A stretch of 64,000 nt of DNA from assembly GCA_965178125.1 (NCBI GenBank), contig OZ237737.1, positions 1,054,001-1,118,000 on the forward strand, read 5' to 3'. Source of the stretch: Bilabrum cf. latius. Taxonomy: Eukaryota. A model generated the notes under the pieces. It was not told the origin of the DNA. It worked only from the letters and a program-made list of their open reading frames with translations, and did no database searches. Shown in pieces: positions 32,986 to 62,594 of the stretch. The position numbers and the translations under genes were made by a program. Within the stretch, counting starts at the first letter, position 1. Each line of letters opens with the position of its first letter.

Positions 32986-33328
32986 AGACTGACGTGATCG
33001 ATGCGCGGTGCCACGTGACAGTTCAAACAACCAAATCTGCGGTGAGAGTCGATCCAAATCCTGTACCAGCCTGAAGCATTATCCGCATACCATAATTGGT
33101 GTCTGATTCGAATAGCACACAAATCAATGACAACTTCCTCACAAGAATGCTTGATCCCGCTGTTCCACAGGCTACTTGAACTCGGGATACTCGAGCAAAC
33201 ACACATGGGCCAAACGTTACGGCGCCGCGCTTCGAGTTGCGGAACCTCAGGTTGATGAACAAGTTGCGACCACAGAAACCCGAACGGTGGAATTGTTTCA
33301 ATAATCAAGAGTGCCGCTAGACGGCACC

Positions 33329-35236
33329 ATGAGCGAAAAGCGCTCAACTTTGACGAATGTCCTTTTGACAGTGTACTCTTTGCTTTCATTATGCTGTATT
33401 GTGAAGGCAAACGATCGCTGTCCGACCAGTGTGAGGAGTTGAAGAGGTTCACGCGCAATAGTCTCGACCCAGCTAGTTTTTCTGGCTCGGGTTCGTGTAC
33501 AGGTGCACTGGTTCCTTCCTTTATATCTAGATAATATTACTTTCCTGCAGTGGACGTTTTCGGAAGTGTCTCCTCACGGTAAGCCTAGATAATGAAGTAG
33601 CTTTCTTTTTGGCATTCGCATATTTGTTTTCTGTCATCACATACAGATATAAGACGGATCTCTGTCTCCCTTTTGGTCTATTATACTCCTCAGGTGATTT
33701 TTGTTACAGGTACACGAGCGGAAGTAGGAGTGAGTCCTGTTGATGGCACAGCGGCTGTGCAGTTTCACTAGAGGAGCCGACGTATCATGTCTGCTTGATC
33801 CCGTCATTCACACAATTTTTGGTATTCGCAGCTGGATACTAGCAGGAATTGTACTGCAGAGTGAGGACAATAACTTGAATGTACTTCAACAAGCTGAATG
33901 TGCTTCGTTCTGGACTGGTTGCCTCGTTCGCCACGAGAACGCGTTCACTTTTGTTGCTGCCTTGCTAGCAGAGCTGGACATCTGGTGGACACTTGACTGG
34001 TATCCACAACACTGCGGAGAATAACCTCGTCTACGGCCTTTGCCTCAGCAAGAACTGCTGGTGAGTTTAGAGACCTTGCTGGCCCACCAACCACAAAAGC
34101 CCTTCCAACCTTGCTGAGCAAACGTCTCCAAATAGTTGCGGTTTGACCGTGCACGCGATTGTCTATAGGCGTTCCAAGTTCTCTCCTGGCAGGATCGGCT
34201 TGACTGACTGGGCTCGCGAGGGACGGTGGGACTGGCGGGACGGTCTGCCGTACGGCTACTCCAGGTAAGATTCCTGCAACTTTCCAGGACTTCACGCGGC
34301 CTTGCCTAAATAAACCAAAGTCACGATCACTAGTCTGCCATTGTTGCAGGTGGCACTCTGGGGAACCCAACAACTGCTGCGGTAAGTTTTATTGGCTTCT
34401 GCTGTTTCATCCATCCATGAACGCTCTGTCATTCCTTTACATTTCATGTGATATTTGGTTTCATGCCGCGCAGGTGGAGAGGATTACGTAAGGATTGGGC
34501 AGGACCTACCGCATCTGCGGCAGGATGGAGCAGTCACCGAGCTGCTGAGTTAAAATTACGACCGCCTAACCCAATAAACAAAATTGCAATTGTTCGTGGC
34601 TCTCTATATTCCACAGGTTCATATGTGGTCTGCGGGTGGCGCGCAACCAACTTGGAACGACGTGGGATCTACTTATTCTACCCAGGGCGTGTGCTACGTC
34701 AAAGCAGGGTGCAAGAAGGGACAGTACAAAAGTGGAAGCAGCTGTACGGCATGCCCTGCCGGGAGGTACAGGCCAAACGGAGGTGGAAATGGCGTCAATG
34801 ATTGCTTGTATTGCGTGAGAGTGCCTCGTGCCGCGTTCCAAACCCGATTTGCACGCAAATCCGATCGGATTTGCCGACCAAATCGGGTTTGGAACGCGCT
34901 GTCAGCATCCGCGCCACACACCGCAGTGGTTCCGCTGCCTTCATGACTGTACCTTCCCCATCATGCTTTGCTGCCGATTAAATCATTCCATCGCAGCCCG
35001 CCGGCAAGTATGGGAGGTACACTGGACGGACCACTTCCAACTGCGACGGCGACGCCAGCCGCGGCTACTACACCACGTCTGGCTCCACCCGGAGTACGCG
35101 ATACTCGTGCCCTGCCGGCGTGTACTCCAGCGGCAACGGAAACTCGAACAACCAGTGCTCGGGTTCGTGCGCCGCCGGATGCTATTGCGGCATTCGCTCG
35201 ACCTCCTCGTGCCCCAACAAGTGCCCCGCCGGCCGG
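33329..35236 (+). CDS. Multi-exon secreted/surface C-type lectin with Cys-rich (GCC2/GCC3-like) repeats, interrupted by the viral insertion
   Basis: Signal peptide MSEKRSTLTNVLLTVYSLLSLCCIVKA. Exons encode GGHLTGIHNTAENNLV, WIGLTDWAREGRWDW, WHSGEPNN and WNDV, then CPAG repeats. The frame stops making sense at ...CPNKCPAGR where the palindrome begins. Some small 5' exon boundaries are uncertain. Confidence 0.8.
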
Positions 35237-35292
35237 TCTCGCAGTCCATATGAAACCCGTAGTATACTACGGGTTTCATATGGACTGCGAGA
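35237..35292. repeat. 56-bp perfect palindrome at the left end of element A
   Basis: TCTCGCAGTCCATATGAAACCCGTAGTA|TACTACGGGTTTCATATGGACTGCGAGA, followed by GTAGAGTA. Confidence 0.97.
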
Positions 35293-35862
35293 GTAGAGTA
35301 TAGGGGATTTTACTTTTGTTAAAAGTAATTACTTTCCATGAATTGTACAAGAGTCGAAATTTCTGAATGGGTTATTCTGTACGTGCAGAGATGGATCGGG
35401 AGAGAGTGTTGCTGGGCGCGAACAGATTCTCCTGCGAGTTGCTGTGGATTCCGCAATTCCTTAATGGATATAATTTACTTCTCTAGGGGTTTCAAACGGG
35501 CGAGGGGCGGTCGCGGAGCGCACGTGCGGAGCGCGTGGTGTAAGATATTGTTCAGTATATTTAAAAGAGTTCCACATTTTGTGTCTCAGTTTTTACTTGG
35601 TTTAGTACGGATTTAATACAGATGTTCCATGTTCCACATTTTTTTCACACTCTCTCTCAATATTTCATTTTTGACATTTCTCTGAAAATTTCGTTTCGAA
35701 ATTATCTGTGGTTACAAAAAAAACATGGAAACATGGAACATTTCTTTTAATCTCTTTTAAATTATGGAACAAAACATAGAACAAACTTAGAACAATCAAA
35801 TAAAAAATCTTAGAACAAACACACAAATTATAACTCTATAAAATATATAAGGTAATGGTTAT

Positions 35863-36384
35863 ATGGATCAAACCCTAAACCCCACACAACTAACTCATCT
35901 TGCCAATCGTTTCAGCATACCCAATTTCAATTGGATACAATACAAAGATATCTTACATCATGGTTTACCCCAAGGCGATTTCGTACTTTTTTACCCTCAA
36001 GAACAATATGGTAACACCATCAGCGGTCACTACACCTGTGTTATTCAAACTCCCAATGTTATCTATTTCTACGATCCTTATGGCGAACTTCCTGATACAC
36101 ACAAAGTAAACCTTTCTGGTGCACAAAAACAAATCCTCTACGATCGCAAACTCAACCACCAAAACCTCACCAAGTTACTCTGGCAAACTGGTAAGTTAGT
36201 TGATTATTCCCACTACCCACACCAACAATACTCCGATGATATCGCAACATGTGGTCGACACTGCGTCTTACGCCTTGCCAATCGCTAGATGAGCAATGAT
36301 CAATACCACAAGTACCTAAAATACCTTAGCAAACTAAACAATCAACCCAATCTAGATAAACTAGTGTTTCAAATAACTCAGTAA
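35863..36384 (+). CDS. Virophage maturation cysteine protease (adenain-like), element A
   Basis: SGHYTCV, YFYDPYG, HQQYSDDIATCGRHC (His-Asp-Gln-Cys); reads through TAG 36286-36288 to TAA. Confidence 0.9.
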
Positions 36385-36407
36385 TTATTATCACTGGTAG
36401 TAATTAT

Positions 36408-37319
36408 ATGGCAAAAAGTCACGTAATTGATTACCAATACGTAAACCTATAGTAGTTCAACCAAGGCAAAACCGATCTTGAAACCAATCTTGAACAAACA
36501 CGACAATCAACCTTCCTCAAACCCAACAAAGGATACCTGTTTGGCATTGTTAGATGGTTTATTAGCAACGGTGTTGCCTTACCCGTTTTCCAAGCACCAC
36601 TCAATCCACTTTCAATCAGTGTTGAACCCAATTCTGGCACTGCCGAAATAATTGATCTTACCTTTTCCGAGGATCTGTACTACAACATGCAGGATCTCGT
36701 CGCCGAACTCAATGCCTCAATCAAAGTTGCATGTGATAATCTATCCATTGGTACAGGTGATCAACCATCAGTTAGTTTCGACGGTAAACTATTTTCCATC
36801 AACTCCAATACCGCCTTTCGTTCCGCCAATCGTCTTGGATTCAACCCCAGATTAACCCGAATGTTACACACTTTTCGTTTTGAATCAGGCAGCGGCAATC
36901 CATCCGATAGTTGGAACTGGCTACTACTAGAAAATGATCTCGAAACACAATTCACCGATTCACTCGAAAATATCGATCCTGTTGCTCGTATCCTTATCAA
37001 AGCACGGGGTTTACCCATTAATCAAGAATTAACACCTCTACCACTCAACTCACAAGGCAAAATCTCCGATAAAAGCGAAAGTATTGTTACCGATTTTAAA
37101 GTGGTTATGACCAACGGATCTCCTTATAGATCTTTCTTGTATAATGCTAGTAGCACTCCACGATGGACTCAAATGCTGGATGTATCTGGTAGTACTAAAA
37201 ACTTAACCTTTGAATTATACTGGTTAGATTATAGAGGTGTTGAAACAAGAATAAGTTTACCCAGCGAATCAGCCGCCGATATCAAGGGTTTGTTTAAGGA
37301 AATTAGCGAATTCACTTGA
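36408..37319 (+). CDS. Minor capsid (penton) protein, mavirus-like, 303 aa, element A
   Basis: Lies between protease and MCP. ETQFTDSLENIDPVARILIKARGLPINQELTP resembles mavirus penton as I recall it. Tandem TAG TAG at 36450-36455; TGA stop. Confidence 0.82.
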
Positions 37320-37344
37320 TTTTTTTTTCTACAACCTAGTTATA

Positions 37345-38117
37345 ATGAGTGAAATTAACTCTAATCTCCCTTTAGAAATTGGAATCAGCAAAAGCTACCA
37401 ATTTACTGCCCCCTCTCAACTTAAGTACCAAAGTCAAGCCGATGCACGTAATGCGGTTTATGAGGATCACCCATCAACCAAACCACTTTCAAACACTGGT
37501 TGGAGCTACCGTTGGCAGTTTGATCCTGCTGATGGATTGCTTGGTATCCCCGATATGGAATTCTAGAACCTTAGTTTCTTACTAACTCTCAATGGTGGTG
37601 GCAATCTTGTCCCCGATGACCTTAAAAACAACCTTGGTATCGCCACCTTCGGCGAATCATCAGTTGTTGAGAGAATCGATTTCAATCAAGCAGGACAAAA
37701 TATCCAAACCGAGCCATCCAAAATGCGATACATCTGGGCTGGTATGAACTCCATTGAAGTCAACTCCCTTATCACCAATGGTCCTGAACCTGATACCAGT
37801 TCAAAATATGTACCTCTGGCACAAAGCAATGTGCTTCGGGATGGTTTTAACTCCACCTCAAACACCAACACTCGCGGTTTAGGCTTACGTTACAATGCCA
37901 CTCTGGAGGCTGTAGATGCCGCCACCGTTAGATTTACTATTCCCAGTTTAATTTGCCGTCTACCCTCCGATGCTTTTGATTTCAAATCAGAGTACCCAAA
38001 ACCATGCAATAGCATGGATCAATGGAATCTTGAACTAAAACTTAATAACGTTGCCGCCAGCCTTGTTCGTTCTGGTCTTGACGACTTAAGAGTTGCATTA
38101 GAAGGAGGAACTGTAAA
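37345..38117 (+). pseudogene. Major capsid protein of element A, N-terminal ~257 aa, cut by insertion of element B
   Basis: Follows penton and is alignable by eye with the N-terminus of the MCP at 55753. One TAG at 37564-37566; the frame runs into the second palindrome at 38118. Confidence 0.75.
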
Positions 38118-38182
38118 TCTCACACACCACATACCAGGGGGACCTCCAATTTGGAGGTCCCCCTGGTATGTGGTGTGTGAGA
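38118..38182. repeat. 65-bp palindrome (32-bp perfect arms, 1-nt centre) at the left end of element B
   Basis: TCTCACACACCACATACCAGGGGGACCTCCAA-T-TTGGAGGTCCCCCTGGTATGTGGTGTGTGAGA, followed by GTAGGGTA. Confidence 0.97.
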
Positions 38183-38790
38183 GTAGGGTATTTTTTATGT
38201 ACATTTTTCTTTTGTTATAAGTAATTCTTTCCATAAAACGGGTAGAGGGTGGAAATTTAAGTTGCTGAAAAATCATTTTTTTGCAGGTGAAATTTTCAAC
38301 TGCCAAAAATTACGCACTGAGTTACACTGCTACGTTTCACATCTCGGGTTCTATTCCTCTTGCAGAGGAGAGAAATTTGGGGGTCTCCATAGTATTCTGC
38401 GGGGTCCCCCAGGCGGGGGATGTTCAAAAATTCATTTAATATTGCATTGAGAAATCACAGGGATTCTCATTTTCATTTTTTTTTTATTTGGTTGTTGTTC
38501 AGAAAAATCTCATGTTGTTCAAAATACTCGGTTTCATGAAATTTTCAGAACTCAGCCAACTAAAAAAAAAATGGATTTTGAATTTTTTTCTAAGAATGAA
38601 AAAATCTCATTTCCTTTATTTTGAACAACATCCCTACCTTTTCCGACAACAAAACCTTTATTTTGAACAACATTTTGAACAACATAATTATTCGTAACCA
38701 ATTATTTTGAACAACATTTTGAACAACAACGAATAAAATTATAGATAACTAATAATAACCATTTTTTCCCCCTAAATCTGAATAAATAAC

Positions 38791-39070
38791 CACACGCAAC
38801 ATTCCCCAATGGGTGCATCGTGTTGCAGAGCTCATGGGCTTTCAAATGATATAAGGTTGTACCAGGGTTAATTTCACCTGTCGCATGGGATTTTCACCTG
38901 TCGCATGGGATTTTCACCTGTCGCATGCGAATTTCACCTGTCGCATGCGACACACACCTGTCCCATGCGAAACTGTATGATCTTGTGCGACAACCACCAA
39001 CAAACCTTATATCATTTAAAAGCTCTCAGTGCCAGCAATGCAATGCACCCATGTAGAGGGGTTGCGTGTG
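38791..39070. repeat. Five 20-bp tandem repeats (38871-38970) enclosed by imperfect ~70-80 bp inverted repeats
   Basis: Unit (A/T)TTTCACCTGTCGCATG(G/C)GA. Flanks CACACGCAAC..ATGGGTGCAT..AAATGATATAAGGTT versus AACCTTATATCATTT..ATGCACCCAT..GTTGCGTGTG. Confidence 0.9.
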
Positions 39071-39184
39071 CTTTAGTTTTAAGTTATTTATGGTTTTATT
39101 TTTCAATCAATTGTTTCTCAAAAACTAAAGTACACGTAACTATTTGAGCCCTCCCATAACATTACCTGCATTCTTAGCTTTCCA

Positions 39185-39565
39185 ATGATACCTTATTTGT
39201 TACAATGGAGTAGCTACAACCTGCTCAACAAAAGGTTACCACCTTTTCACAAAAAGGTTCGAACCTTTTGGATTCGGAGCATCTCTGTTTACCCTGATAT
39301 CTCTGCACCTAGAATAGTTACGGATACCAAACTTTACAGATTGGAGCGCAGAGATACAAAGCACATCTCTATAAAATTACAAAGTAAATCAATGGGCTGG
39401 TGCCAAGTTACGTGCCAGCAAAAATTGTACAAAATGCAAAAGTAGTTCAGCACTTTGCATTTCAACATTTCAACATTTCAAACCCAACAAATATTATATC
39501 ATTCGAACCGTATGATCCAGCACTATTCGGTGGTTGGGTTCAAATTTGTTACGTGTGGTTTTTAA
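39185..39565 (+). CDS. Possible hypothetical protein (126 aa)
   Basis: ORF 39185-39445 extends through TAG to TAA; no recognisable motif. Confidence 0.3.
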
Positions 39566-39584
39566 TTCAGATTTCCGATCAAAA

Positions 39585-40952
39585 TCAAATGTTAAGCAAA
39601 TTTAGAACGGCACGAATCTAACTATTGGTTAACCCTTTGTAATCGATATTTAAGTTACACAAACCATCTTGCTTTTGAATCACAACCTAAGGTTTGGGTT
39701 TTAGGCGAATTATTGGCTTCAATTTTACTTTGGTTTTCTGTTTGATCCTTACTCGAATCTTAGGCTTCAATTTGATCTTAGGTTTCAATTTGATCTTAGG
39801 TTTCAATTTGATCTCAGGTTCAGGTTCAGGTTCACCCAATAAATTACACGGAATCACATCATCAGCATTGATTGAATATGATTTGTACGTGAGCGAGGTG
39901 CCTACCGAATGCCCCATTGCGGACGCTATTTTCTCCAACTGCTCGCTAGTTAGAGGTTTTGGCTAATTATAGTGATTGGTACAAGCAATCTCACGCCAAA
40001 CACTAGCACTTACCTCTACACCAACTAAGGCTAAACTAATTGCCTTCATCGTTGCTCCGAAATTTTTAACTCGTTTCTTATGACTAACTGTAAGTGGAAT
40101 TAAGTGATCCCCTGGCTCGTAGTACCGTTCCAGCAATTCCGCCATCCGGTTTGATATCACAAACTAACGCTACTGCGTATTACCTGTGCTTTTGCCTTTA
40201 TCTGTTCCTGCATCTATTTTCCACATTCGATCTCTAGTTGAAATGTTACTCAAACCATCTCCATTAATCGTAGTTGCCTACAGCACCTTGGCTCGGAACG
40301 GGGCTACATACAAGATAGCATATATCAGGCAAAATTTCCACGGCTAATCAACGCTATCAACAGATTTAGTGGCAAACCGTTCAACTGCTAATTTTAATGA
40401 GATAGGCGGAGCGGGTTTAATTGCTGTGCTGGTAGCCACGTTCTCTTGTTTGGCACTATCGTAACTCTATTTACTTACCAATCCCAAGAGCTTAATATCC
40501 TCATCTAATCCCTTATGGGTGGCAAGATACTGTTTCATGATACTACTCATGCTCTATATCTCTCTCTCGATTATTACCTATCGAGAGTGGCTAGTGCTCT
40601 TAGTAGGGCAGGTGCATTTCCTTGGGCGCGTTTCAGCGAAAAACCTAAGCATCTCATAATACTGTTTATCGTTCATACCTTTGGGTATTGGATGCTCCAG
40701 TGTTAATCCAAACTGTTCCAAGAACGGCATGATCGAGTTACGGGCAGTGCCCAACTTATTATTAATGGTTTTTATGCTCATCTCCGAGTAGTTCACCTTA
40801 ATCCATTCTTGCAACCTGCAAGTTGATTGCTTTGATTGGGGTTTAACCCATAAACCATGGCGTTCGGCATACCTTTCAATCGATTTGCCTTCCTTCAATA
40901 TTTTAAGCACTTCTGCTTTTGCTTTTTCCTCTAATTGCTTTGATTTATCCAT
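39585..40952 (-). CDS. Tyrosine recombinase family protein (455 aa) with C-terminal (IKLKPK)n tail
   Basis: Three listed ORFs joined over TAGs. Catalytic-type motifs LYVAPFR, DKGK, SASVWRE, IASAMGHSVGTSLTY; TGA stop. Confidence 0.8.
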
Positions 40953-41224: not shown

Positions 41225-42319
41225 TTAATGATTTAATCCTTTCTGTTTGAATCCCATCTGCTTTATGCATAGGTAAAGATCCTCTGATATTACTTTACCC
41301 GCTTTTCTCGCCCGAAACAGTGCAGATTTGTATGGGGATTCCTTGATTGCAAGTGCAAACTCCTTCTAGGATTCAATATGCTTTACCTTGGCGTATTCTT
41401 GATTGATTGCATCCTTGAATTTTATATATATCTTTTCTTTTTCATCTAAAAATGGTTTGAGGTGAGGCAATACTGCCAGAACCTCATTAATCTCTCGATT
41501 AATTACAATTCGCCATAAAGCCTCATGATCCATTTGTTTCCCTGATCGCAAGTACGAGGATTTTACCCATGATTGGGTTTTAAACTTCTTGCGTTTGTAC
41601 TTTTTGCGGTTAGCATCCCACTGTGCAACCACAAACCCCTCTTGATCTGGTTTCAAGGTTTGCAAGAGTACCATCACATCGTATCGCGATTTACACATGT
41701 ATCTTTCCCCCTAAAACGCACCTTTTACCTCTGTTCCATCATTATTGCATATTCCTAGCACGGTGGCAAACTACTTAGGATAATACTCCACTATCCGGTT
41801 GAACGGAGTACATAATTCGTAGATGTATGTTTGCCCTGCACTGGGTTTGAAGATTGCTGGATCGATTTTCTTTTCGGAAGCATCAAACAATTGCCTCCAG
41901 CTGTTATCGTAAATCTAACTTACATTACCCTCGGCAAAACTTCCTCTAGTATTGATCATCAGTTGATCTTTGTGGGTATACGCTAAAATCAAACTCCCAT
42001 CGTACTTAAGCTGCACCTCAAACTCCTCATCCCAATCAATATCATCGATCCCATCCAAATAATCTGGTTTCTCGAAATCATTGAAAAAACGATCAAACGA
42101 TTTTGCTAATACACTATACTATTTGGGTGTACCTGATATCACTAATCCTCTGCAATAATGGCTGATCCAATTTCTTGGAGTGCCCAATTCTTTCTCGTTG
42201 TAGTTGAGAATATACACCTATTCTTCCTGATTTTCCTTTAGTTTTAATTGGTGTTGCTCCGCAAATTCCTAGATATCCTTGCAACTGTTTAATAAACTTA
42301 TCATTTCATCCAATCTCAT
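41225..42319 (-). CDS. T4 Rnl1-type RNA ligase (364 aa)
   Basis: With TAG read-through: CRGLVI, KSFDRFFN, motif I KYDGSLI, INTRGSF, YELCTPFNRIV, EGFVV, KFK; TAA stop. Confidence 0.88.
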
Positions 42320-42677: not shown

Positions 42678-42748
42678 GGGATTATGTTGTAATGGTAACA
42701 TTTATGCCTTGGGCGCATAAGATTTGGGTTCGATTCCCAATAATCCCC
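42678..42748 (+). tRNA. tRNA-Pro(TGG)
   Basis: Acceptor GGGATTA/TAATCCC; anticodon arm TATGC-CTTGGGC-GCATA; T arm TTGGG-TTCGATT-CCCAA. Confidence 0.88.
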
Positions 42749-42750
42749 TC

Positions 42751-42832
42751 GAATCTGTAGTTTAAACGCTCTTTTGTGGAAGAGAGATGCAGGTTTAAAT
42801 CCCGCCAGATCCCGCCAGATCCTGTCAGATTC
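42751..42832 (+). pseudogene. Degenerate tRNA-His(GTG)-like sequence with tandemly repeated 3' end
   Basis: GAATCTG...CAGAT(C/T)C stem; TTGTGGA loop in a CTCT/AGAG stem; D loop missing; ATCCCGCCAG-like unit three times. Confidence 0.5.
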
Positions 42833-42900
42833 TATGTTTATTATATTCACTACTGTTAAAGAAAGTAACCACAATGCTTTTGATAGCAGTAAAAGCTTAA

Positions 42901-42970
42901 CACGATATGGTGTAGTGATAGCATTCTCGCATCTAGTGGAGAGGCGTTGGTTTGATTCCAGCTATCGTGT
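42901..42970 (+). tRNA. tRNA-like gene with CTA at the anticodon position (imperfect)
   Basis: Acceptor CACGATA/TATCGTG; D arm GTGT-AGTGATA-GCAT; loop AT-CTA-GT (42931-42937) in a TCTC(G)C/GGAGA stem with one bulge; T arm GTTGG-TTTGATT-CCAGC. Confidence 0.6.
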
Positions 42971-42993
42971 TAAATGTGGGTAAAGTGAACATA

Positions 42994-43064
42994 TGGATTA
43001 TGTTGTAACGGTAGCATACTAGCCTCATAAGCTAGAGATTCAGGTTCGATTCCTGATAATCCAC
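42994..43064 (+). tRNA. tRNA-Met(CAT)
   Basis: Acceptor TGGATTA/TAATCCA; anticodon arm CTAGC-CTCATAA-GCTAG; T arm TCAGG-TTCGATT-CCTGA. Confidence 0.9.
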
Positions 43065-43775: not shown

Positions 43776-43802
43776 TTTAATTAATGTTTGTATTTTTTTT
43801 AA

Positions 43803-44682: not shown

Positions 44683-45066
44683 TAAATCATTTTTTTAAAA
44701 AAATGATTATAATCAATTTGCTTGGTTTTAGATCAGAAGCCTGATCATTATTTCTATTTCGTAAAAACGCTCATTTTAATGTTCTTCGGATTTCGTACGG
44801 AAATTCCCTACGATGATCAAGTAAAAAAAATGAGCGTTTTTGAGGGTGGGTTTGATTTGTAGAAAACGTTATTTTCACCATTTTTGAAAATCAAAAATGT
44901 GTGGAAATCGTTTTTTTTTATATATATAGTTAAAAAATGTTCTTAATGTTCTACCCTATATAAAACAAATAAAATCCGTATCAAAGTAAGGAACATTAAA
45001 ATGTTCTCAAATGTTCAAAAATGTTCGATCCCTCTGAACTAAATCAAATATTATTTGATTTTTTAA
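44683..45066. repeat. ~380-bp non-coding direct repeat, copy 1
   Basis: Colinear with 47680-48064; shared blocks include GAAATTCCCTACGATGATCAAGTAAAAAAAATGAGCGTTTTTGAGGGTGGGTTTGATTTGTA and AATGTTCGATCCCTCTGAACTAAA. Confidence 0.92.
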
Positions 45067-47654
45067 ATCAAACAGATATCCTTTGGAAGCTTAGAATATA
45101 CTCTTTGAACTTTTACTTGAATCTTAGGTTTAACCATAACAGTAACAGGCTCTGATTGCTTGGATTCCTCCCTATCATCATATTTAGGTTCGGGTACTTC
45201 ATATTCATTTTCAGGGGCATCAGGAAAATACCAAACAGGATCTTTCAGCACCTACCTGATCAATTCAAGGTTGCCCTCGGGTGTAATTAAGAACCCCCTA
45301 GTTCGTGTTTTTCCAATCTAGCAAACCTTAAAGAAATCATTGCTCCATTTCTTGAATTGTTTACTAAACGATCTGGTAGATTTTATGCTATCCCGTTCAT
45401 TTACATGATTGTATAACAGCATTAATTCTTGAGCCGTAAATCGATCTTCTCCATCAGCTCTTTGATTTTCTAATTCAATCAGCGTTTTAATGAATGGATC
45501 ATAGCTCAAGGATGCCATATCACGCTTTAAATCAGTCATTGGAATATTTCTTAGGTTTACTGTTGAAAGATCACGGGATAACAGGTAATACCAAAAATGT
45601 TTGCCTGATTCAGGAGTTAAAAACTTAAACAGATTAGTGAAATAATCAACATCGTTACATCGTTTGTTATCTGCATCTAAACAAAAGTACCTGCGATCAC
45701 TACTGGAAATCTTGGCGACCCATTTCCAATACTGTGATGTGAGCATAAAATTATTAAAACAGCTCATTTGAATTGGATCTACTCCTTTGGTTTCAATCCG
45801 CTGCGTTTTGCGAGTAATCATATCCTTTAAGGAATCTGCATTTCGGTAAGCACCACCCTGTGATCCAATCTCATTGCAAACTGTAAAGATGGTTTTCATT
45901 CCGTCCATGTTAAACTATCTGGTTAAATCATTAATGTTACTCACATCACGAATGTACTAATTGCCAAACACATGTTCTTTCAAAAACTCCATGATTGAAT
46001 TCTTACCTGCACCCTCTCTGATTGAAACCAAAACAACAGCCACCAAGGATTTTTTCCATGGTGTTTGAGCAATCGATGCCATCCAATCAAGAATATACTT
46101 GTAACACATCTAATCACCACCACACCAAATATCGTGCAAGTGATCTAGAATCGGCTGGATTTTGGTTTGATCCATCTTGAAGTTATCAGGTGGTGTTACT
46201 GAATGCATGAATCCCTTAAACATGTTGAATTTGTTTTCTACCATGTGGTTAGGTGGCGGATTGATAGTGTATGGTACAAACGTAGTTTTCGTGTAGGTTT
46301 TGATAGAGGCTGATTTTAACCAGCATTCGGTAATCCAAGGTTGGTTTTTATTGCCATGCCGTAAGTTCTCAAAACTAACTAACAGATTTTGGCGATTGAT
46401 AGTTACAGCATCTCCTGATTCTGGAAAAACACGTACAAACATCGCAGGATTTTCTATCTTTACACAAAAGTTCTCGAAATACTACTATCGTAACTTGTTT
46501 AATTTACTGTAATCCATGATGCTATGTAGTTTTATCGGAACACGTTCTGTATCCATCGAATTATGAAAGAACGGATCAAAAGGATTGTTACTTTCAATAT
46601 GCTTAATTACCTGCTGTTCTTTTTCATCCAAGTAATCCTAAACCTCTTTGGGTACAGGTGCTTCTTGATCGGATTCTAAAATAGCATCCACTTGATAGTT
46701 TTCCATTCGTTTTGTTTCCAGTTTTACTCGGAAACCTGTCTTTTCATAGATGAACTGTTCGATAGCTGGAATCCATGTGTTTACCGTTTTGCTCTAAACA
46801 TCACGCAAAAACACGCCATCGTACTAATAATCAGCCACCTTGCACTTAAACTTACCATTCAGAATGAAAGCAATATGCTCGGTTATCTACCGTTCAATGT
46901 GCTGAAAGAAACTTGAAAGTTTGCCTACATCGGCTCTATCAGTATTTTCTTTACCGGGATTACAAGGTAACAACTCCCAATCAGAACCCATTATTTGTTT
47001 TACATGCTGCATGATTTCAGCAAACTCCCGTTTGGCTTTAACAAATAAATCGTAGTTTTGTTTGCATCTGTGAGTGAGCTCTTGAAGATCCTCGATTCCA
47101 ATTTGTTTTGCAGTACCCTAAATGCTACCATCGTATAAACAAGCAAATCCTAGTTTCTTGATGCTATCCTTGGGTAATTTGTGATCCTCTAAGAATTCGG
47201 CAAATATGCGCTTGCGTTCATTGTTTAGCCTCTTAATGGCAACTGAAGGTTTGTTAGTTAAAACCGGGTACAACTGTTCAGCAATAACAGGGTGGCAGTT
47301 ACAAACATCAAGATCAATGTAATTATCTCGGCATAAGAAATGCCTAATCGGTCGTGTAATATTTACAAACCCATCATCACTGTAAAACCGCCCGAATCCT
47401 CTAGTGCATGTAAAATCCACCTTTCGATTGATGGTTGCTTTTTTTGATCGCCCGATATGCCGTTTCAAGATATTCTGGGTTTTGGTAATTTCGGCTCGAA
47501 TATCTACCAGATCTGATCCTGCCATTAAAGAAAACAAAATACGGTTGAGATGCTTTTCCACCATTTTGGAGCGCTTTACATCCACTACAATTTTTGTTTG
47601 TACTGTTGATCCCACAGGTAGAGGTTTTACTAAATCGGTTATCGAAATTTGCAT
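45063..47654 (-). CDS. TVpol (PolA-related primase-polymerase) fused to superfamily 3 helicase, 863 aa
   Basis: Four listed ORFs in one frame. GFGRFYS, YIDLDVCNCHP, FQHIER, YDG; Walker A EGAGKNS, VCNEI, DRRYF; TAA stop. Confidence 0.85.
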
Positions 47655-54025: not shown

Positions 54026-55753
54026 TTACATTCCAAGTTTGCTTAAAAGTGCTTGAGTAGAAACGCTCTTACCAGCCACCCGATTTACGCCTTTACCCCT
54101 TTTTCCAGCACCCACTGCTTTGGCAACTTTACCCACAGCGGTATTATCACCAACATAATTCTTTACAATAGGTAGGTTACGGGCAACTTTAGAAACCTCT
54201 TTAAGCACTGGGGCTGCTTTCTTGATTCCGTTCCACAGTCGACCGAAGAAACCACGCCTTCCACCCACGATTGAGGCAGATACTCCATCATCTTTGTAAG
54301 TAACATTAGTAGCGGTTAGGCTCTTAACTGGATCGGCAAGTAACACACGGCTCTCCATCAAACCGTCTTTGAGGTAATTGGCTTCGGAGTTGGCTAGAAT
54401 CATCCATAAGCGGTAACTACCAGCTGCCACTGCAGCACCAGTGGGGTTCTGGATAGTAACAGTAGCCTAGATAGAGAATCTAGCATTCACACCACCTTGG
54501 GTTTCCTGAGGCAGAGGCAATTGGGATGGTTTTATTGCCAACATGCAACCGTTGCCGTAAATTCGGTTGGCACCAACTGAGAAATCCTAGATTAAACCAG
54601 CGAAATGCCCGAATCTGCCGTTATATCCGTTTTTGGTGCTCATTTGCCAGAGTTCATACTGGGAAATCAACCTGCCAATATCTTGTTCACCATTGATGGT
54701 TAGGTTGATGGCAGAAATGGGTAAAAACTAATCAGGCTAGTTGCTTCCAGCCACAGGATCGCGTTCCACGTAACACAGCAACATTTCTGGTGTGTATGCG
54801 AAATCATAAGACTACATCTGGTGCTCAATGCTGCCTGGCACACCGTTTGCAGCGGCTGGAATAGCCTGGTTAGGGCGTTCCTAACGCTTTTGGCGATGTA
54901 CTGAGTTTAGCACAATTCTGTTTGGTTGAGGAACTTCAAGCGCAGGTGTATCGATAGTGAAATCCAGAAACAGGGATGGGTTACCAACTTGGGTAAATGC
55001 TAAATCCTGTCCGCCGACAGTTGAGGCAGACCATATGCGCTATAATCCATTAGAACCAATCTCAAGTTTGAGATCGAACGGTTGCAGGTTCTTGTAAGGA
55101 TTAGGATAGGCATCCTTGAAAGGGAAAAACTTGTTCCATAGGCGCTCCTCCAGAATAATGAGGAATTCGTGTGAGTTGCCAGCAGCTGGACCAACATAGT
55201 ATACAGAGTAACGGTTGCCGAAACCACGGGATTCGTTCTAATCAATTGTATCTAATGAAACGCGGAGTGGATCACTGAGATAATCACGGCTATATGCAGT
55301 GTTTTTATCAGGAACAGGAGCAGGGCTCATTCGGTAACCAATCTCTGGATCGTGGTTATGAGCAAACTCTTTGCTTTCCTAGTAACTCTCACTCACCCAA
55401 GTAGAACCATTGTGATCCACAATGGTACGATCAAACATTCTAGCCAAGGGGAAAGGTTTAACACCAACTCTGCTCTTTAAATCTGCTAGAGCAAGGGCAG
55501 CAGCATTTGCCTTAGCCACTCGAACTCGTTGAATGTATCTTAAAGTAGGTTGATTGAAATCACCTTTTACTGGATTTATAGTCATATTCAAGGTTGCACC
55601 ATTTGCAACAGGATCAGTAAAGGTTAAGCGGTTGTAACCAATCTTGGTGTTACCTGCTTCTACCTGTTGTTTTACTTTGGAAGGATCGAGGAAGTTGTAC
55701 TTTGGATCAACTGCCACACTTACTGGTAAACTTTGTCTTAAGGTTTGAGACAT
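54026..55753 (-). CDS. Major capsid protein, element B (575 aa)
   Basis: Continuous frame over TAGs directly after penton; virophage MCP size; C-terminal IVGG followed by a basic amphipathic tail; TAA stop. Confidence 0.85.
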
Positions 55754-55784: not shown

Positions 55785-56696
55785 TTAATTTAGCTCACTC
55801 ACCTCCACAAATGCTAATTTTGCCGAAACAGAGGTTCGGGCACGAGGCTTCACATCGTACTTAACACCTTTACTATCCAACCAGTAAAACCTGAGTTGAA
55901 TGTTGTTGAACTGGTTTCCAGTTACTGTTGCCCATCGGTGGTTGCCACCAGCACTATAAGTAATTGATTGAAGGTGGCTGCCGTTACTTGGAAAGAAATT
56001 GAAATCGGTAATAATGTTTTCGACCCGAGTAGAAAACTAGCCTTCGGCTGATTCAACTGAATTTGGCAACAACTCGCTGATCATGGGTAACGTACCCTAT
56101 ATTTCAATTCGTTTCACGGGAACTATTGCTTCAAGAGTGGATTCAGGCTGTTGCACTACATCAACATCCAAGAAAAAATAGGGATTCTCCAATGTATCCT
56201 AAGGAATTCTGGGAAAGGTATGGAACATGGCAAACAAGTGCTCATTGAATCCTAAATCGTATCCTGTGGTTAAATCCCGAAAGTTGCTGGTGCTTTCGAT
56301 AAAAAATAGAATGCCATCATAAGTTAACTCAGGAAAATCCACGGGTGAAACTGGAGATGGGTGAGCAGCACAGGCGGTCGCTATTGCAAGATTTATGGCA
56401 GCTACCACTTCTGCCATATTGTAAACAAACTTGTTGCTACCAAAGTTAACATTGGCTGAACTTACAGTGCTTGAAGCCTGATCACGAATGTTAACAGTAT
56501 AAGTTAGCTTAGGATTAGGTTCAAATACTGGAAATACAGCTTGTTCGATATTCCATCGATCCACACTGAGTTTAAAGAGTTTCTCATCAGTCAAAATGTT
56601 GCCAGAGCGCTGTTCCTCTAACAAAGTACGATCTGCAGTGGTAGTTTCTTGGTTGAAGTATCTTAGATTTACATACTGGTAGGTTTTATTGCTCAT
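55785..56696 (-). CDS. Minor capsid (penton) protein, element B (303 aa)
   Basis: Clear homologue of 36408-37319 (YQYVNL..FNQ, YNM, GFN..L..M.HTF); TAA stop. Confidence 0.85.
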
Positions 56697-56724: not shown

Positions 56725-57267
56725 TCACATGGGTCTGAATTGTTCAAACAAGGTAACAAACACATCGGGCTTAACTTTGTGTTGCTTACACTTTTGTAAT
56801 AACCGTTTATTGTACTGTTCATGATTTAAATGCCGATTACTAAGCCGTAGCAAGCAGTGCCTACCACAGGTTGAGATTTGTGGATCATCGATTTGGTGAG
56901 GGAATGGTGAATAATCTATGGTTCGATGATCATTTATTAGTTTGCCTAAGATGCCTTTCTATCGATCTAGGTAGCCAAGGGCTTCTCGCTGTGGGCTGGT
57001 TTTAGTGATTGCATGGGGTAAAAATCCGTATGGATCATAATAGTGGATACGATTGGGATCGAGGCTTTGAATTACGGCACAGTAATGCCCAGATTCGTTT
57101 TTGCCTTGCCGTATCAAAGGGAAAAACAAAACGAAATCCTGATCCTTGCCAGTGGGTAATCCGTGCTATTCAATTTGATCGTTGGTAAAAACAGGCACAT
57201 TGGCTTTCAAGTGTTGCAACTGTTGTGGGCTGAGCCCCGATTTAATTTTATCAAGTAACTGATCCAT
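56725..57267 (-). CDS. Maturation cysteine protease, element B (180 aa), missed by the ORF track
   Basis: DFVLFFP, SGHYCAVIQ, YYDPYG, HQIDDPQISTCGRHCLLRL; two TAGs; TGA stop. Confidence 0.9.
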
Positions 57268-57804: not shown

Positions 57805-58827
57805 TCATATCAAACAAACCTGATGGGGCGATATCAAGCAATTGCGTTGCTGGTTTATGGCTACCCAATCGTTTCGGCTTAACAGGCTTTTCACCTTTTT
57901 TATCTCCTTAGCTTTAAATTTCAGATAGTTTTCCATTAGAAACTAATTCTAACGAGGTTTGTTGCGCTAGAAAATTACATAGATGTTAATTTCATTGTGT
58001 AGAGTGCGGGTATTCTAACCCCAAGATGGTAAGTGTGTAATTACAAAGATATCGGTTTCGGTACTTCTACCCTTGGTAAGAATATAATTGATCAAGAACA
58101 GGGCTTTGTTTTGCAGTTCACCGCCTTCCACATCATCAAATATCCATACAGAATTCTTGATCAGCTTCAAAAATCCTTCGGTTACCGAATAGTTGATCTT
58201 TTTCTTTGGCTTCAAGGATTCAACCGCAAGTTTCATTTCAATAACCTCCTCAGGATCTAGTTCGCTCTTATCCAGCATTTTGTAGCGCAGTTTAGCCTCT
58301 TGATATTTTCGTTCGGAACTATCGCCAATGATAAGATCATCGATATCGAGGGTATGAAACTTGGCTTCTTTGAATCGCTTTTCATCATCCTTGCCGTTGA
58401 TCACATACACCTTTTTATTAAATAGTTTCCTAATAATTTTGGCTTGTTCTAGCACCCAGGTAGTTTTACCTGAACCTGCTTTACCCATTATATGGTACGC
58501 AGTTCGGCAATCGCGTGCATCTCGATCGGGATACGGAATAATCGTTCCTTTTTTACTTTTATATTTTCCATGTAGGATCTTTCCTTCCCGCATTTCCTAT
58601 TTAAACTTTTTCTTTAGTTCTGGTAGTTGTCGCTGGTATCTGGTGGCACGAACACCGTATCTCAACCTTAGATCAGATTCACTGATATCGGATTCATCAC
58701 CAGAATCATCATCAGAATCAGAATCATTTTCAGGTGGTTTGCGGTTGTAGTATATAACATCTGGATCATTGCGATTCATATCAAGTGCAACAGGAACACC
58801 ATCTTTTGTATGTCGAGTGGAAATCAT
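57805..58827 (-). CDS. FtsK/HerA (A32-like) genome packaging ATPase (340 aa)
   Basis: Walker A GKAGSGKT, Walker B IFDD, ILTKGRS...ITH, LHNE; joined over TAGs; TGA stop. Confidence 0.9.
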
Positions 58828-61382: not shown

Positions 61383-62594
61383 ATGGATACAAAGCATCAG
61401 CAACGTGAATTATAGAAGTTGAAAGAGTTATATTATGGTTCAAAAGCCTTTGTAGGTGAGGAAAAATTATACAAGTTTGCGATTCAGAACGGCATTGATT
61501 TGCCACGGCGTGTGGTTAGAGATTGGTTGCAAAAGCAAGAAACATGGCAAATGATGAAACCAACCAAGAAAGTTCGTTCAATTAAACGCTAGGTAATTAG
61601 TGCTCCTTTTAAAAAGTTGCAAATAGATTTGGTGGATTTGAGTTCATCGGAAACCCCACGAGGCATGAAATGGTTGCTAACAGCCATCGATGGTTTTAGT
61701 AAGAAAGCTTACGCAATTGCCATGCCCGATAAGCGAGAGCAAACCGTATTGAATGCTTTGAAACAAATCTTAGAGTAGATGCCCCAACCACCCAGTGTGT
61801 TGTAGAGTGATAATGGCAGTGAGTTCGTAAATCGAGCATTTAAAGCATTTTTAAAAAGCAAGAAAATTAAATAGATCTTGAGTACAGCGGGTAAACCGCA
61901 AACCAATGGATTGGTTGAGAGATTTAATGGAACAATTAAGAGAATGATTAAGGCGGATCGCTTGGATTCGGGTGTGAATAACTGGGATAATAGTTTGGCA
62001 GCCTATTTGAGGGTATACAATCAAACGCCACAAAATACAACCAAGCAATCGCCAGATAATTTAGAGAGGGAGTATCTGGAGAACAAACAGAGTTCTGGAG
62101 TGGATGCAGTTAGAAAAAGAATAAAGAAAAATGCAGGTGAACGTGCCAATGAGTAGCGGTTCAAAGTGGGCGATCAAGTAAGGGTTCGATTGCGATGGGG
62201 ATCTAATGAGAAAAGGGGTGAAAACTGGTCTAAGGATGTGTATACTATAAGATAGGTGTTAAAACCGCGTATGCCGTGGAGTCCGTGGTCCTATTAGGTA
62301 GAAGGATTGCCAACCAGATATTTTACAGAGGAATTGCAGAAGGTGGATGAGGTTGAAAATCCAATTACTTTGCCAGATTAGTATATTATTTCGAGTATTG
62401 TGCGCCCTAGTGTGGTTAATGGGGAGCGTGGATTTGTGGTTCGATGGGTTGGATACAAGGTTCCAGAGTGGAACAGCTATGAAAACATGATCGAAGATGT
62501 GCCCAAACTGGTTTAGGCATTTGAAAAGAAGCACAAAGTAGAATGGAAAAAGAATCCACGTACAAACAAATGGACGTTTACGTGGAAAAAGTAA
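61383..62594 (+). CDS. Retroviral-type (rve, DDE) integrase with C-terminal chromodomain-like region (403 aa)
   Basis: LQIDLVD, TAIDGFSK, L*SDNGSEF, PQTNGLVERFNGTIK, FKVGDQVRV, FVVRWVGY; TAA stop. Confidence 0.93.

What the first reader, a model, noticed from the sequence alone, without database searches (positions are those of the whole stretch)
35237..38190. Two nested virophage elements that each begin with a long perfect palindrome plus a shared end motif
Seen: both junctions (35237 in a host gene, 38118 in element A's MCP) have the form TCTC-[28 or 32-bp arm, mirrored]-GAGA-GTAG(A/G)GTA. The inner sequences are unrelated while the structure and flanks are conserved. Inference: these are opened hairpin (covalently closed or fold-back) termini of a linear genome. 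That would differ from the protein-primed TIR ends of mavirus/Polintons and from circular Sputnik, pointing to a different end structure and integration route for a virophage.
Basis: partly seen in the sequence, partly recalled or inferred. Interest (0 to 1): 0.88.

Follow-up and report, generated by a model that had tools for sequence, protein, structure and literature searches.

The report
Palindrome-capped ends of nested virophages
Two virophage genomes sit one inside the other in a protist chromosome, and each starts with a long perfect DNA palindrome followed by the same 12-base motif, as expected for hairpin-type genome ends, which one 2026 preprint has also described for virophages.

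Summary
The window holds two perfect palindromes with arms of 13 nt or more: 35237-35292 (28+28) and 38118-38182 (32+1+32). Both begin TCTC, end GAGA and are followed by GTAGRGTA, then by a second conserved 36-nt block. Shuffles give arms of at most 11 nt.

Both palindromes lie exactly at insertion borders. Contigs of two other studies carry the host site empty at 35237. Other copies of element A in the same organism have the capsid gene uninterrupted at 38118.

- Element A has protease, penton and the first 257 codons of a capsid gene.
- Element B is a mavirus-like virophage of at least 25.9 kb, with MCP, penton, ATPase, D5-type primase-helicase and rve-chromo integrase.

A's palindrome arm recurs next to about 4-5% diverged A-like copies elsewhere, so the palindrome belongs to the element.

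My reading: these are the unfolded duplex form of terminal hairpins. The conserved motif GAGA|GTAGRGTA straddles the palindrome's inner edge as a candidate nick or resolution site. This is inferred. Both right ends lie outside the window, and free viral DNA was not examined.

A July 2026 preprint describes terminal palindromes and a hairpin-priming model for Halocafeteria virophages. This is therefore a new member of a known kind.

Also noticed: host and virophages read TAG as a sense codon.

The parts
34982..35236 (+). Host flank: an open frame rich in Cys and CPAG that is cut by element A
   Evidence: ORF 34982-35296 has no Pfam match. X1 and X2 contigs match up to 35237 and then continue with other GC-rich DNA, which is the empty site (tables 7, 8).
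35237..35292 (.). Element A terminal palindrome, 28+28 nt, perfect, TCTC...GAGA
   Evidence: (I7). The arm is carried by X1 and X2 contigs that start at 35263 and 35265.
35289..35300 (+). Conserved 12-mer GAGA|GTAGAGTA straddling the inner palindrome edge of A; candidate nick or resolution site (inferred)
   Evidence: an exact match, one of only two in the window.
35307..35342 (+). Second conserved subterminal block of A (TTTT.CTTTTGTTAWAAGTAATT..TTTCCAT)
   Evidence: 89% identical over 36 nt to 38203-38237, E 1.5e-6; alignment.
35863..36384 (+). Element A cysteine-protease-like gene (1 in-frame TAG)
   Evidence: 49-58% identical in pieces to B's ORF 56725-57267. Sits in the same place in the protease-penton-MCP order. 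No Pfam match.
36408..37319 (+). Element A penton (minor capsid) gene (2 in-frame TAG)
   Evidence: Homologous to B's penton (E 3e-14 and 3e-10). B's penton matches the mavirus minor capsid protein 6G41.
37345..38117 (+). Element A major capsid gene, first 257 codons, cut by element B
   Evidence: BLASTP to residues 5-232 of B's MCP, E 1e-13. Other A copies continue past 38118 with different sequence (loose end at 38118 in X3 and X6).
38118..38182 (.). Element B terminal palindrome, 32+1+32 nt, perfect, TCTC...GAGA
   Evidence: (I5).
38179..38190 (+). Conserved 12-mer GAGA|GTAGGGTA at the inner palindrome edge of B
38183..39584 (.). Non-coding left terminal region of B, with iterons and short inverted repeats. 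The outer ~0.8 kb may be a TIR (weak hint from depth).
   Evidence: Repeats D3, D12, I16, I17, I25. Word depth falls from 536 to 233 to about 100 between 38284 and 38998; the tool warns that depth is not a copy number.
39585..40952 (-). B ORF of 455 aa (10 TAG), function unknown
   Evidence: No Pfam, PDB or word-index match. A likeness to tyrosine recombinases was seen by eye only and was not verified.
41225..42319 (-). B T4 Rnl1-type RNA ligase
   Evidence: PF09511, E 6e-15.
42678..43064 (+). B tRNA cluster: Pro(TGG), a weaker tRNA-like gene at 42901-42970, and Met(CAT)
45063..47654 (-). B D5-type primase-helicase, 863 aa (12 in-frame TAG)
   Evidence: PF19263 DUF5906, E 5.6e-12. One frame interrupted only by TAG.
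54026..55753 (-). B major capsid protein, 575 aa (9 in-frame TAG, TAA stop)
   Evidence: Mavirus MCP 6G45 E 3.6e-32; Sputnik V20 3J26 E 9.4e-9. 243 homologs at E<=1e-3, the best 30% identical.
55785..56696 (-). B penton protein
   Evidence: Mavirus minor capsid protein 6G41, E 8e-14.
56725..57267 (-). B protease-like gene
   Evidence: Homology to A's ORF. No Pfam match.
57805..58827 (-). B packaging-ATPase-like gene
   Evidence: P-loop present. Pfam ATPase_2 9.6e-5 and Pox_A32 0.0047, both below the curated cut-offs.
61383..62594 (+). B retroviral-type integrase with C-terminal chromodomain, 403 aa (10 TAG)
   Evidence: rve E 1.7e-19; Chromo E 0.028, below cut-off. 141 homologs, many of them rve plus chromo.
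62705..64000 (-). B fused Tet/JBP dioxygenase and FkbM methyltransferase gene, running off the window
   Evidence: PF12851 E 3.7e-25; PF05050 E 8.2e-8.

Best explanation
The two palindromes are the inherited outermost left ends of two integrated mavirus-like virophages: A, inserted in host DNA, and B, inserted in A's capsid gene. I read each palindrome as the unfolded, fully duplex form of a terminal hairpin.

In the replicating linear genome the end would fold back on itself. A nick at the base of the stem, within the conserved word TACYCTAC^TCTC (the complement of GAGA^GTAGRGTA), would let the hairpin be unfolded and copied. This yields a blunt end that carries the whole palindrome, as in parvoviral terminal resolution. 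That extended form would be the one inserted, most simply by the element's own rve integrase.

This accounts for three features. The stem sequence is free to differ between A and B. The four base pairs at the stem base and the eight bases just inside are conserved. The outer TCTC is merely the copied complement of the inner GAGA.

Shown: the palindromes exist, they lie exactly at the insertion borders, and they belong to the elements, which are virophages. Inferred: hairpin folding in free DNA, the nick site, self-primed replication, and integration by the rve integrase.
For: 1. Anatomy: perfect arms of 28 and 32 nt, far beyond chance.
2. Exact borders. X1 and X2 each have 2 contigs that match the host up to 35237 and then continue with other GC-rich DNA. 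X3 and X6 contigs of other A copies (5 differences over 35859-38118) run on past 38118 into sequence that is not B and stays in frame for the 30 nt shown.
3. Heritability. An X1 contig (35263-35538; 10 differences, 3 gaps) and an X2 contig (35265-35500; 12 differences) start at the palindrome centre. None of the listed differences lies before 35302. X1 also has a junction from the arm into a different GC-rich flank.
4. The 12-mer straddling the inner edge is shared by two elements whose capsid proteins are only 23% identical. A second 36-nt block is also shared.
5. B's visible 25.9 kb holds a D5-type primase-helicase, an RNA ligase and a GIY-YIG nuclease, but no protein-primed polymerase.
6. 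Haro et al. (preprint 10.64898/2026.07.28.741278; section 7 read) found palindromes at TIR extremities next to TSDs in four virophage subtypes and one PLV subtype. [quoted passage not shown]
7. Weak: of 56 contig ends of IMG/VR contigs with related MCP or integrase, one (L031, a virophage contig; integrase 36% identical) ends exactly in a perfect 9+9 palindrome after about 1 kb of non-coding DNA.
Against: - No right end is in the window, so palindromes at both ends, TIRs and TSDs are unseen.
- Nothing was learned about free viral DNA.
- No HUH nickase, protelomerase or resolvase was recognised among the ORFs scanned against Pfam.
- In the one X1 junction listed, the match stops at 35288 and the flank reads CAGC, not GAGA. 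The outer TCTC/GAGA is therefore not always kept (one contig).
- The other 55 contig ends showed no terminal palindrome, and none of the loci carries the motif.
- The composite terminal pattern has 0 matches in viral, metagenome and prokaryote genome collections.
- Word depth of A's left 250 nt is 1.06 times (X3) and 1.44 times (X6) that of A's interior, not 2 times. This hints that A has no long identical TIR, though the tool warns that depth is a poor copy measure.
- X3-X6 may be the sample the window was assembled from, so only X1 and X2 are independent.
Confidence: 0.5

Rival explanations
1. The palindromes are true, inherited element ends, but they serve integration only. The integrase (or a second recombinase) would recognise the TCTC tip and a palindromic end structure. 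Replication would not use hairpins.
For: B has an ordinary rve plus chromodomain integrase. The outer tetranucleotide TCTC is identical in A and B. The preprint links palindromes to 'particular RVE integrases'.
Against: rve integrases read subterminal sequence, yet A and B share only 4 bp at the tip, while 12 plus 36 nt are conserved inside the palindrome. One X1 junction lacks the outer 4 nt while keeping the inner motif. A perfect 56-65 bp palindrome is not a feature of integrase ends in mavirus or Polintons (recalled). The EMALE paper's main text has 0 occurrences of 'palindrom' or 'hairpin'.
Confidence: 0.2
2. The palindromes are scars. They would arise from fold-back synthesis or annealing at a broken or single-stranded end during some past integration, then be carried along passively, without function.
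For: [quoted passage not shown] The arm sequences of A and B are unrelated.
Against: Two distantly related elements have the same architecture, with the edge at the same base of the same 12-mer. The arm matches neither target's continuation, judged by eye from the letters. A's arm is kept in about 4-5% diverged copies of other studies at another locus. The preprint finds palindromes in all complete members of four virophage subtypes.
Confidence: 0.15
3. Assembly or amplification fold-back artefact.
For: Palindromes do break short-read graphs: contigs start at the centre.
Against: A fold-back chimera mirrors everything beyond the turn, whereas here the two sides are different DNA (host against element; MCP against element). 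A's arm plus inner motif is in contigs of two other studies (X1, X2), and the borders coincide with an empty site and an uninterrupted gene.
Confidence: 0.02
4. Each palindrome is a separate miniature fold-back element that inserted next to a GTAGRGTA target at the element border.
For: None beyond the shared flank.
Against: No other copy of either palindrome and no solo copy is in the window. The palindromes lie exactly between target and element at both nested borders.
Confidence: 0.03

Closest known systems
Endogenous virophages and PLVs of Halocafeteria seosinensis with terminal palindromes (Haro, Gallot-Lavallee, Blais, Archibald; bioRxiv 10.64898/2026.07.28.741278; passages and section 7 read)
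   Same: Integrated virophages of low GC in a protist genome, often nested. A palindrome of about 52 nt sits at the very extremity next to host DNA. The palindromes are associated with non-pPolB replication genes (D5 primase-helicase) and rve integrases. A hairpin-priming model is proposed.
   Different: The host differs: host DNA here is about 60-68% GC against 47% reported, and TAG is a sense codon here, while that text has 0 occurrences of 'genetic code', 'stop codon' or 'TAG'. Added here: unrelated stems with a conserved 12-mer across the inner edge, evidence that the arm is inherited, and one junction without the outer 4 nt. Their sequences and tables (supplements) could not be seen, so I cannot say whether the motif is shared.
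Mavirus and the endogenous mavirus-like elements (EMALEs) of Cafeteria burkhardae (Hackl et al. 2021, PMC8547959; passages read)
   Same: MCP and penton are homologous to mavirus (6G45, 6G41). An rve integrase is present. The elements have low GC in a high-GC host and insert into host genes. Some EMALEs have primase-helicase in place of pPolB.
   Different: EMALEs are described with TIRs of 0.2-2.3 kb and TSDs of mostly 3-5 bp. The words 'palindrom' and 'hairpin' occur 0 times in the main text. Mavirus itself encodes pPolB (recalled).
Parvovirus terminal hairpins and terminal resolution (established knowledge, recalled; cited by the preprint as refs 39, 40)
   Same: A terminal palindrome is present in extended duplex form. 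A sequence-specific site at the inner edge of the palindrome would be where a nick lets the hairpin be unfolded and copied.
   Different: Parvoviruses are ssDNA viruses with an HUH Rep nickase and imperfect, branched hairpins. No HUH gene was recognised here, and the palindromes are perfect.
Covalently closed hairpin telomeres of poxviruses, asfarviruses and chloroviruses, with palindromic concatemer junctions (recalled)
   Same: Linear dsDNA genomes in which unfolding a hairpin gives a perfect or near-perfect palindrome, with conserved resolution sequences beside a variable hairpin. A virophage replicates inside a giant-virus factory, so such enzymes could act on it.
   Different: In those viruses the full palindrome joins two genome copies, not a genome and host DNA. 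No resolvase was seen in A or B, and the helper virus is unknown.
Protelomerase (telomere resolvase) sites such as phage N15 telRL (recalled)
   Same: A perfect palindrome of similar size would be converted into hairpin ends.
   Different: No protelomerase match in any ORF scanned. A tel site lies at the fused ends of a circle or dimer, not at a junction with host DNA.

Membership tests
Virophages of the mavirus kind (Maveriviricetes) | Double jelly-roll major capsid protein homologous to mavirus or Sputnik MCP | tested here: met
   B MCP against 6G45, E 3.6e-32, and 3J26, E 9.4e-9. The A fragment against B MCP, E 1e-13.
Virophages of the mavirus kind (Maveriviricetes) | Penton (minor capsid) protein | tested here: met
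   B against 6G41, E 8e-14. A against B, E 3e-14.
Virophages of the mavirus kind (Maveriviricetes) | Cysteine protease and FtsK/HerA-type packaging ATPase | tested here: inconclusive
   The protease-like ORFs of A and B match each other but no Pfam family. The ATPase has a P-loop and only sub-threshold Pfam hits (Pox_A32 E 0.0047). A's ATPase is not in the window.
Virophages of the mavirus kind (Maveriviricetes) | Retroviral-type (rve) integrase | tested here: met
   B: PF00665, E 1.7e-19. A's integrase is not in the window.
Terminal-palindrome virophages/PLVs (Haro et al. 2026 preprint) | Long palindrome at the extremity of the element, directly against flanking DNA | tested here: met
   Left ends of A and B.
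Terminal-palindrome virophages/PLVs (Haro et al. 2026 preprint) | Palindromes at both ends, flanking TIRs, adjacent to target site duplications | not testable with these tools
   Both right ends lie beyond 64000. No whole genome is held.
Terminal-palindrome virophages/PLVs (Haro et al. 2026 preprint) | Replication gene other than pPolB | tested here: met
   B has a D5-type primase-helicase, and no PolB was found among the ORFs of 38118-64000. B's remainder and A's replication gene are unseen.
Linear genomes with hairpin telomeres (parvo-, pox-like) | Fold-back or covalently closed ends in free genomic DNA | not testable with these tools
   Only integrated copies are available.
Linear genomes with hairpin telomeres (parvo-, pox-like) | A site-specific nickase or resolvase (HUH Rep, RuvC-like resolvase) | tested here: inconclusive
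   None was recognised by Pfam. A GIY-YIG nuclease (E 6.7e-9) and several ORFs without any match remain. The enzyme could also come from the helper giant virus.
Protelomerase systems | Telomere resolvase gene | tested here: not met
   No such Pfam hit in any scanned ORF. ORF 39585-40952 has no match at all.

The most novel reading that the evidence does not exclude
These virophages are linear dsDNA genomes with fold-back (hairpin) telomeres. They would replicate by self-priming and terminal resolution at a conserved GAGA^GTAGRGTA site, using a D5-type primase-helicase instead of protein priming. That replication mode is unknown among capsid-bearing polinton-like viruses. The extended palindromic form would be the substrate of the rve integrase. 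They would do this in a host lineage whose nuclear code reads TAG as an amino acid, a code the virophages share.
Probability: 0.3. Interest if true: 0.85.

Novelty: new member of a known kind. Interest (0 to 1): 0.55.

Why it matters
How virophages and polinton-like viruses without a protein-primed polymerase copy their linear ends is an open question. A second, unrelated host with palindrome-capped virophage ends shows that the feature reported for Halocafeteria is not a peculiarity of one genome.

The 12-base word conserved across the inner palindrome edge, beside stems that are free to vary, gives a concrete site to test by nick mapping or mutagenesis. The shared TAG sense codon shows that these virophages are adapted to their host's unusual genetic code. 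That constrains which giant virus and which hosts they can use.

Tried and rejected
- Right ends. The sequences that follow the insertion points in uninterrupted copies are absent from the window (0 matches with up to 3 mismatches). No inverted copy of either terminal region is present, and there is no minus-strand match of the 12-mer.
- A third 12-mer match with 1 mismatch at 48208 has no palindrome (fold z -0.21) and only weak similarity downstream. I treat it as chance or a remnant.
- Whole genome: none is held.
- Earlier notes of this scan: nothing on this genome or sequence.
- Public collections. The 18-mer CTTTTGTTAWAAGTAATT gave 22 IMG/VR hits, none near a contig end in the expected orientation, so I judged them chance. 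The composite terminal pattern gave 0 hits in viral contigs, metagenome contigs and genome contigs. A's penton and homolog P0002 found no locus. The MCP alignment A3 found 4 IMG/VR loci, and A4 found none in metagenomes. The integrase alignment A6 found 35 loci.
- Palindrome scan. The 38 loci (36 contigs) held 5 perfect palindromes with arms of 13 nt or more, in 4 loci, and none was terminal. The largest (L047, 33+3+33) lies between the convergent integrase and pPolB genes of a polinton-like contig, so it is not an end. Of 56 contig ends (one counted twice), only L031's ends in a palindrome, and no other contig extends it.
- The INPHARED phage collection holds no relative of the MCP.
- ORF 39585-40952. 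It looked like a tyrosine recombinase by eye, but Pfam, PDB and the word-index search found nothing. A single-sequence AlphaFold model had mean pLDDT 36 and was not used.
- The primase-helicase had no useful PDB match.
- MCP word-index search: nothing.
- Target-derived arms were rejected. The arms do not match the continuation of either target, compared by eye with the letters.
- Joint 35559/39630 on opposite strands: the sequences gave no reading.
- Parts of the laid stretch without cover in X1 and X2 are not interpreted.
Full report
**What is there**

The window changes from 60-68% GC to 32-47% GC at about 35.2 kb and stays low to its end. Exactly at the change lies a perfect 56-bp palindrome (35237-35292, arms 28 nt). 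A second perfect palindrome lies 2.9 kb further on (38118-38182, arms 32 nt around one central T). Both begin TCTC, end GAGA and are followed by GTAGAGTA or GTAGGGTA.

- A script found no other perfect palindrome in the window with arms of 13 nt or more.
- In 100 block shuffles the longest arm was 7-11 nt.
- As single strands they fold at -31.8 and -41.1 kcal/mol, and 0 of 200 shuffles fold as well.
- The 12-mer GAGAGTAGRGTA occurs exactly twice, both at the inner palindrome edges. With one mismatch there are 3 matches against 0.31 expected.
- Between TCTC and GAGA the arms of the two palindromes do not align.
- A further 36-nt block 14-24 nt inside is 89% identical between the two (E 1.5e-6).

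**The genes, and a side finding that was needed to read them**

Under the standard code the low-GC part holds only short ORFs. Translating the conserved genes showed that each runs in a single frame interrupted only by TAG:

| Gene | In-frame TAG |
|---|---|
| Primase-helicase | 11-12 |
| One capsid gene | 9, then a TAA stop |
| Pentons | 2-3 each |

The host part behaves the same way. With only TAA and TGA as stops, 6587-28321 is one frame of 7,244 codons with 28 TAG. It ends in a HECT domain (E 2.6e-59). TAG is therefore a sense codon in both host and inserted elements.

In capsid alignments the TAG columns hold polar residues, with Gln about twice its background frequency. The closest homolog has Gln at two of the nine columns. 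Gln is likely but not proven.

**Element A and element B**

Read with table 15, the region resolves into two elements.

- Element A (from 35237) has about 570 nt of non-coding DNA, then a protease-like gene, a penton gene and the first 257 codons of a major capsid gene.
- Element B (from 38118 to beyond 64000) has 1.4 kb of non-coding DNA with iterons, then:
 - an unknown 455-aa ORF, a T4 Rnl1-type RNA ligase, and tRNA-Pro and tRNA-Met genes;
 - RING/MORN and DUF285 proteins, an 863-aa D5-type primase-helicase, a SET-domain protein and a GIY-YIG nuclease;
 - MCP, penton, protease-like gene and ATPase-like gene;
 - an rve integrase with chromodomain, and a fused Tet/JBP-methyltransferase gene that runs off the window.

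B's MCP matches the mavirus MCP (6G45, E 3.6e-32) and Sputnik V20 (E 9.4e-9). Its penton matches the mavirus minor capsid protein (E 8e-14). A's truncated ORF aligns with residues 5-232 of B's MCP (E 1e-13, 23% identity). Both elements are virophages of the mavirus kind, only distantly related to each other and to anything in the libraries. The best MCP homolog among 243 is 30% identical.

**Are the palindromes the true borders?**

I laid contigs of four public runs on 34000-44700. X3 and X6 (one study) hold 0.88-0.91 of the sampled words and may be the source sample. X1 and X2 are other studies with 4-10% diverged sequence.

1. In both X1 and X2, two contigs match the host flank up to 35237 and then continue with other GC-rich DNA. 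This is the empty site.
2. In X3 and X6, a contig with five differences from the window covers 35859-38118 and then continues with sequence that is not B and stays in frame. The organism therefore has other A copies with an uninterrupted capsid gene. Its word depth, 522 against 72-110 for the host flank, suggests several copies, though the tool warns that depth is no copy number.
3. X1 and X2 contigs of an A-like left end start at 35263 and 35265, the centre of the palindrome, as de Bruijn contigs do at a perfect palindrome. They run 236-276 nt inward with 10-12 differences. None of the listed differences lies before 35302.
4. One X1 contig leaves the arm at 35288 into a GC-rich flank unlike the window's. 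The same palindrome arm thus accompanies an A-like element at another locus, and there the outer four bases are not present.

In both insertions the first T of TCTC also fits the uninterrupted sequence, so each border is ambiguous by one base.

These results exclude an assembly fold-back, because the two sides of each palindrome are unrelated DNA and independent studies carry the arm. They also show that the palindrome is part of the element and is not made from the target.

**What could not be seen**

The sequences that follow the two insertion points in uninterrupted copies are not in the window. There is no inverted copy of either terminal region and no minus-strand copy of the 12-mer. Both right ends therefore lie beyond 64000. 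No whole genome is held. Mirrored palindromes, TIRs and target duplications remain untested.

Depth gives only hints. B's outer 0.5 kb is multi-copy, the next 0.35 kb has about twice the depth of the interior, and from about 38.9 kb depth is like the host's. This would fit a TIR of about 0.8 kb. A's left 250 nt has 1.06 times (X3) or 1.44 times (X6) the depth of A's interior, so a long identical TIR is doubtful for A.

**Relatives elsewhere**

- The composite terminal pattern has no match in IMG/VR, JGI metagenomes or prokaryote genomes.
- Using MCP and integrase alignments I fetched 38 IMG/VR loci from 36 contigs. None has a terminal palindrome with arms of 13 nt or more.
- The one large palindrome (L047) lies between the convergent integrase and pPolB genes of a polinton-like contig, so it is not an end.
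- Of 56 contig ends, one ends exactly in a perfect 9+9 palindrome after about 1 kb of non-coding DNA. It belongs to L031, a virophage contig with MCP and an integrase 36% identical to B's. This is what an assembler leaves when it meets a long terminal palindrome, but nothing extends the contig.

This is a lead, not support.

**How it most likely works**

The feature that any explanation must account for is this. The stems are unrelated, yet the last four base pairs of the stem and the eight bases just inside it form one conserved word, and the palindrome edge cuts that word at the same base in both elements.

- If the free genome end is a hairpin, a nick on the returning strand at TACYCTAC^TCTC, followed by unfolding and copying, produces exactly TCTC-stem-stem'-GAGA-GTAGRGTA as a blunt duplex end.
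- The outer TCTC is then only the copy of the inner GAGA. It can be trimmed at insertion, as at the X1 junction.
- The stem is kept perfect because each replication round copies one arm from the other.
- Insertion itself needs nothing unusual, since B has a standard rve-chromo integrase.
- B's primase-helicase, and the absence of a pPolB in the 25.9 kb seen, fit replication that is not protein-primed.

The nickase is unknown. No HUH, protelomerase or resolvase was recognised. A GIY-YIG nuclease, several unmatched ORFs and the helper virus's enzymes are the candidates.

I give this reading 0.5. The rivals are ends for the integrase only (0.2), an inherited repair scar (0.15), a separate fold-back insertion (0.03) and an artefact (0.02).

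**Comparison and novelty**

The preprint of Haro et al. (30 July 2026; passages and section 7 read) describes 52-nt palindromes flanking the TIRs and adjoining the TSDs. It finds them in all complete virophages of four subtypes and in one PLV subtype of Halocafeteria seosinensis. [quoted passage not shown]

In my two full-text searches it was the only paper describing palindromic virophage or polinton ends. The EMALE paper's main text does not use the words.

The present case is thus a new member of that kind, in a different host: host GC of 60-68% against 47%, and TAG as a sense codon, which that text does not mention. It adds three things:

- the conserved word across the palindrome edge;
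- the unrelated stems in two elements of one genome;
- evidence from other studies' contigs that the stem is inherited.

Their supplements could not be read, so I cannot say whether the motif is shared. UAG-only nuclear reassignments are known from a few protists (PMC5304391, listing and abstract seen). My two searches on virophages and variant codes found only a remark on an ochre-suppressor tRNA in metagenomic virophages (PMC6905037, passage read).

**Verdict**

The kind was published four months earlier as a hypothesis. Interest is 0.55.

Noticed in passing
window 6587-28321 (+) and all genes of 35863-64000: TAG is a sense codon in both host and virophages. One host frame of 7,244 codons has 28 TAG and no TAA or TGA, and ends in a HECT domain. 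Virophage genes have 1-12 in-frame TAG each and stop at TAA or TGA. Capsid alignments suggest a polar residue, probably Gln.
   Followed up: partly
window 42490-43064 (+): Element B carries a tRNA cluster: Pro(TGG) at 42678-42748 and Met(CAT) at 42994-43064. There is a weaker tRNA-like gene at 42901-42970 (Rfam 37 bits) whose loop CATCTAG could be read as TCT or, shifted, as CTA. Another degenerate tRNA-like stretch lies near 42490-42558. The cluster sits next to a T4 Rnl1-type RNA ligase gene (41225-42319).
   Followed up: partly
window 48740-48785, 49248-49297 (+) and 62597-62646 (-): A ~46-nt repeat with a small hairpin (AATCCGTA...TACGGGATT) lies just after the 3' ends of genes, twice between convergent genes. 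It looks like a transcript-end hairpin of the giant-virus/virophage kind rather than an element end.
   Followed up: no
window 44679-45061 and 47676-48058: A ~380-nt direct repeat (86-89% identical) brackets the primase-helicase gene of element B. The gene may have arrived or been exchanged as a cassette.
   Followed up: no
window 62705-64000 (-): One open frame fuses a Tet/JBP-type dioxygenase domain with an FkbM-type methyltransferase domain, which suggests DNA-base modification by the virophage. The gene runs off the window.
   Followed up: no
window 38183-39584: B's non-coding terminal region holds five tandem copies of a 20-nt unit (38872-38971), a twice-repeated 27-mer and several short inverted repeats. 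This resembles an origin or protein-binding array.
   Followed up: no
window 39585-40952 (-): This 455-aa ORF next to B's left end has a C-terminal pattern (..VWREIA..., ...MGHSVGTSLTYKSY) that looks by eye like a tyrosine recombinase. No search supported it, and the C-terminus is a Lys/Pro-rich repeat.
   Followed up: partly
window 48208-48219 (+): A third match to the 12-mer, with one mismatch (GAGAGTAGGATA), has no palindrome in front and only faint similarity behind. It is chance or a decayed end.
   Followed up: yes
L031 4330-4347 (IMG/VR contig of 4,347 nt): A metagenomic virophage contig (MCP C-terminus, and an rve-chromo integrase 36% identical to B's) ends exactly in a perfect 9+9 palindrome after about 1 kb of non-coding DNA. 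An assembly broken at a long terminal palindrome would look like this.
   Followed up: partly
L047 5895-5963: A polinton-like IMG/VR contig (A32-type ATPase, rve-chromo integrase, pPolB with an endonuclease VII domain, PLA2-like domain) has a perfect 33+3+33 palindrome between the convergent integrase and polymerase genes, at a step in GC content.
   Followed up: partly
window 33000-35236: The last 2 kb of host DNA before element A has lower GC (47-53%) than the rest. It holds Cys-rich CPAG-repeat frames without a Pfam match and a 20-nt inverted repeat (34832-34851 / 34879-34898). Contigs of the other runs skip parts of it, so it is repetitive or variable.
   Followed up: no
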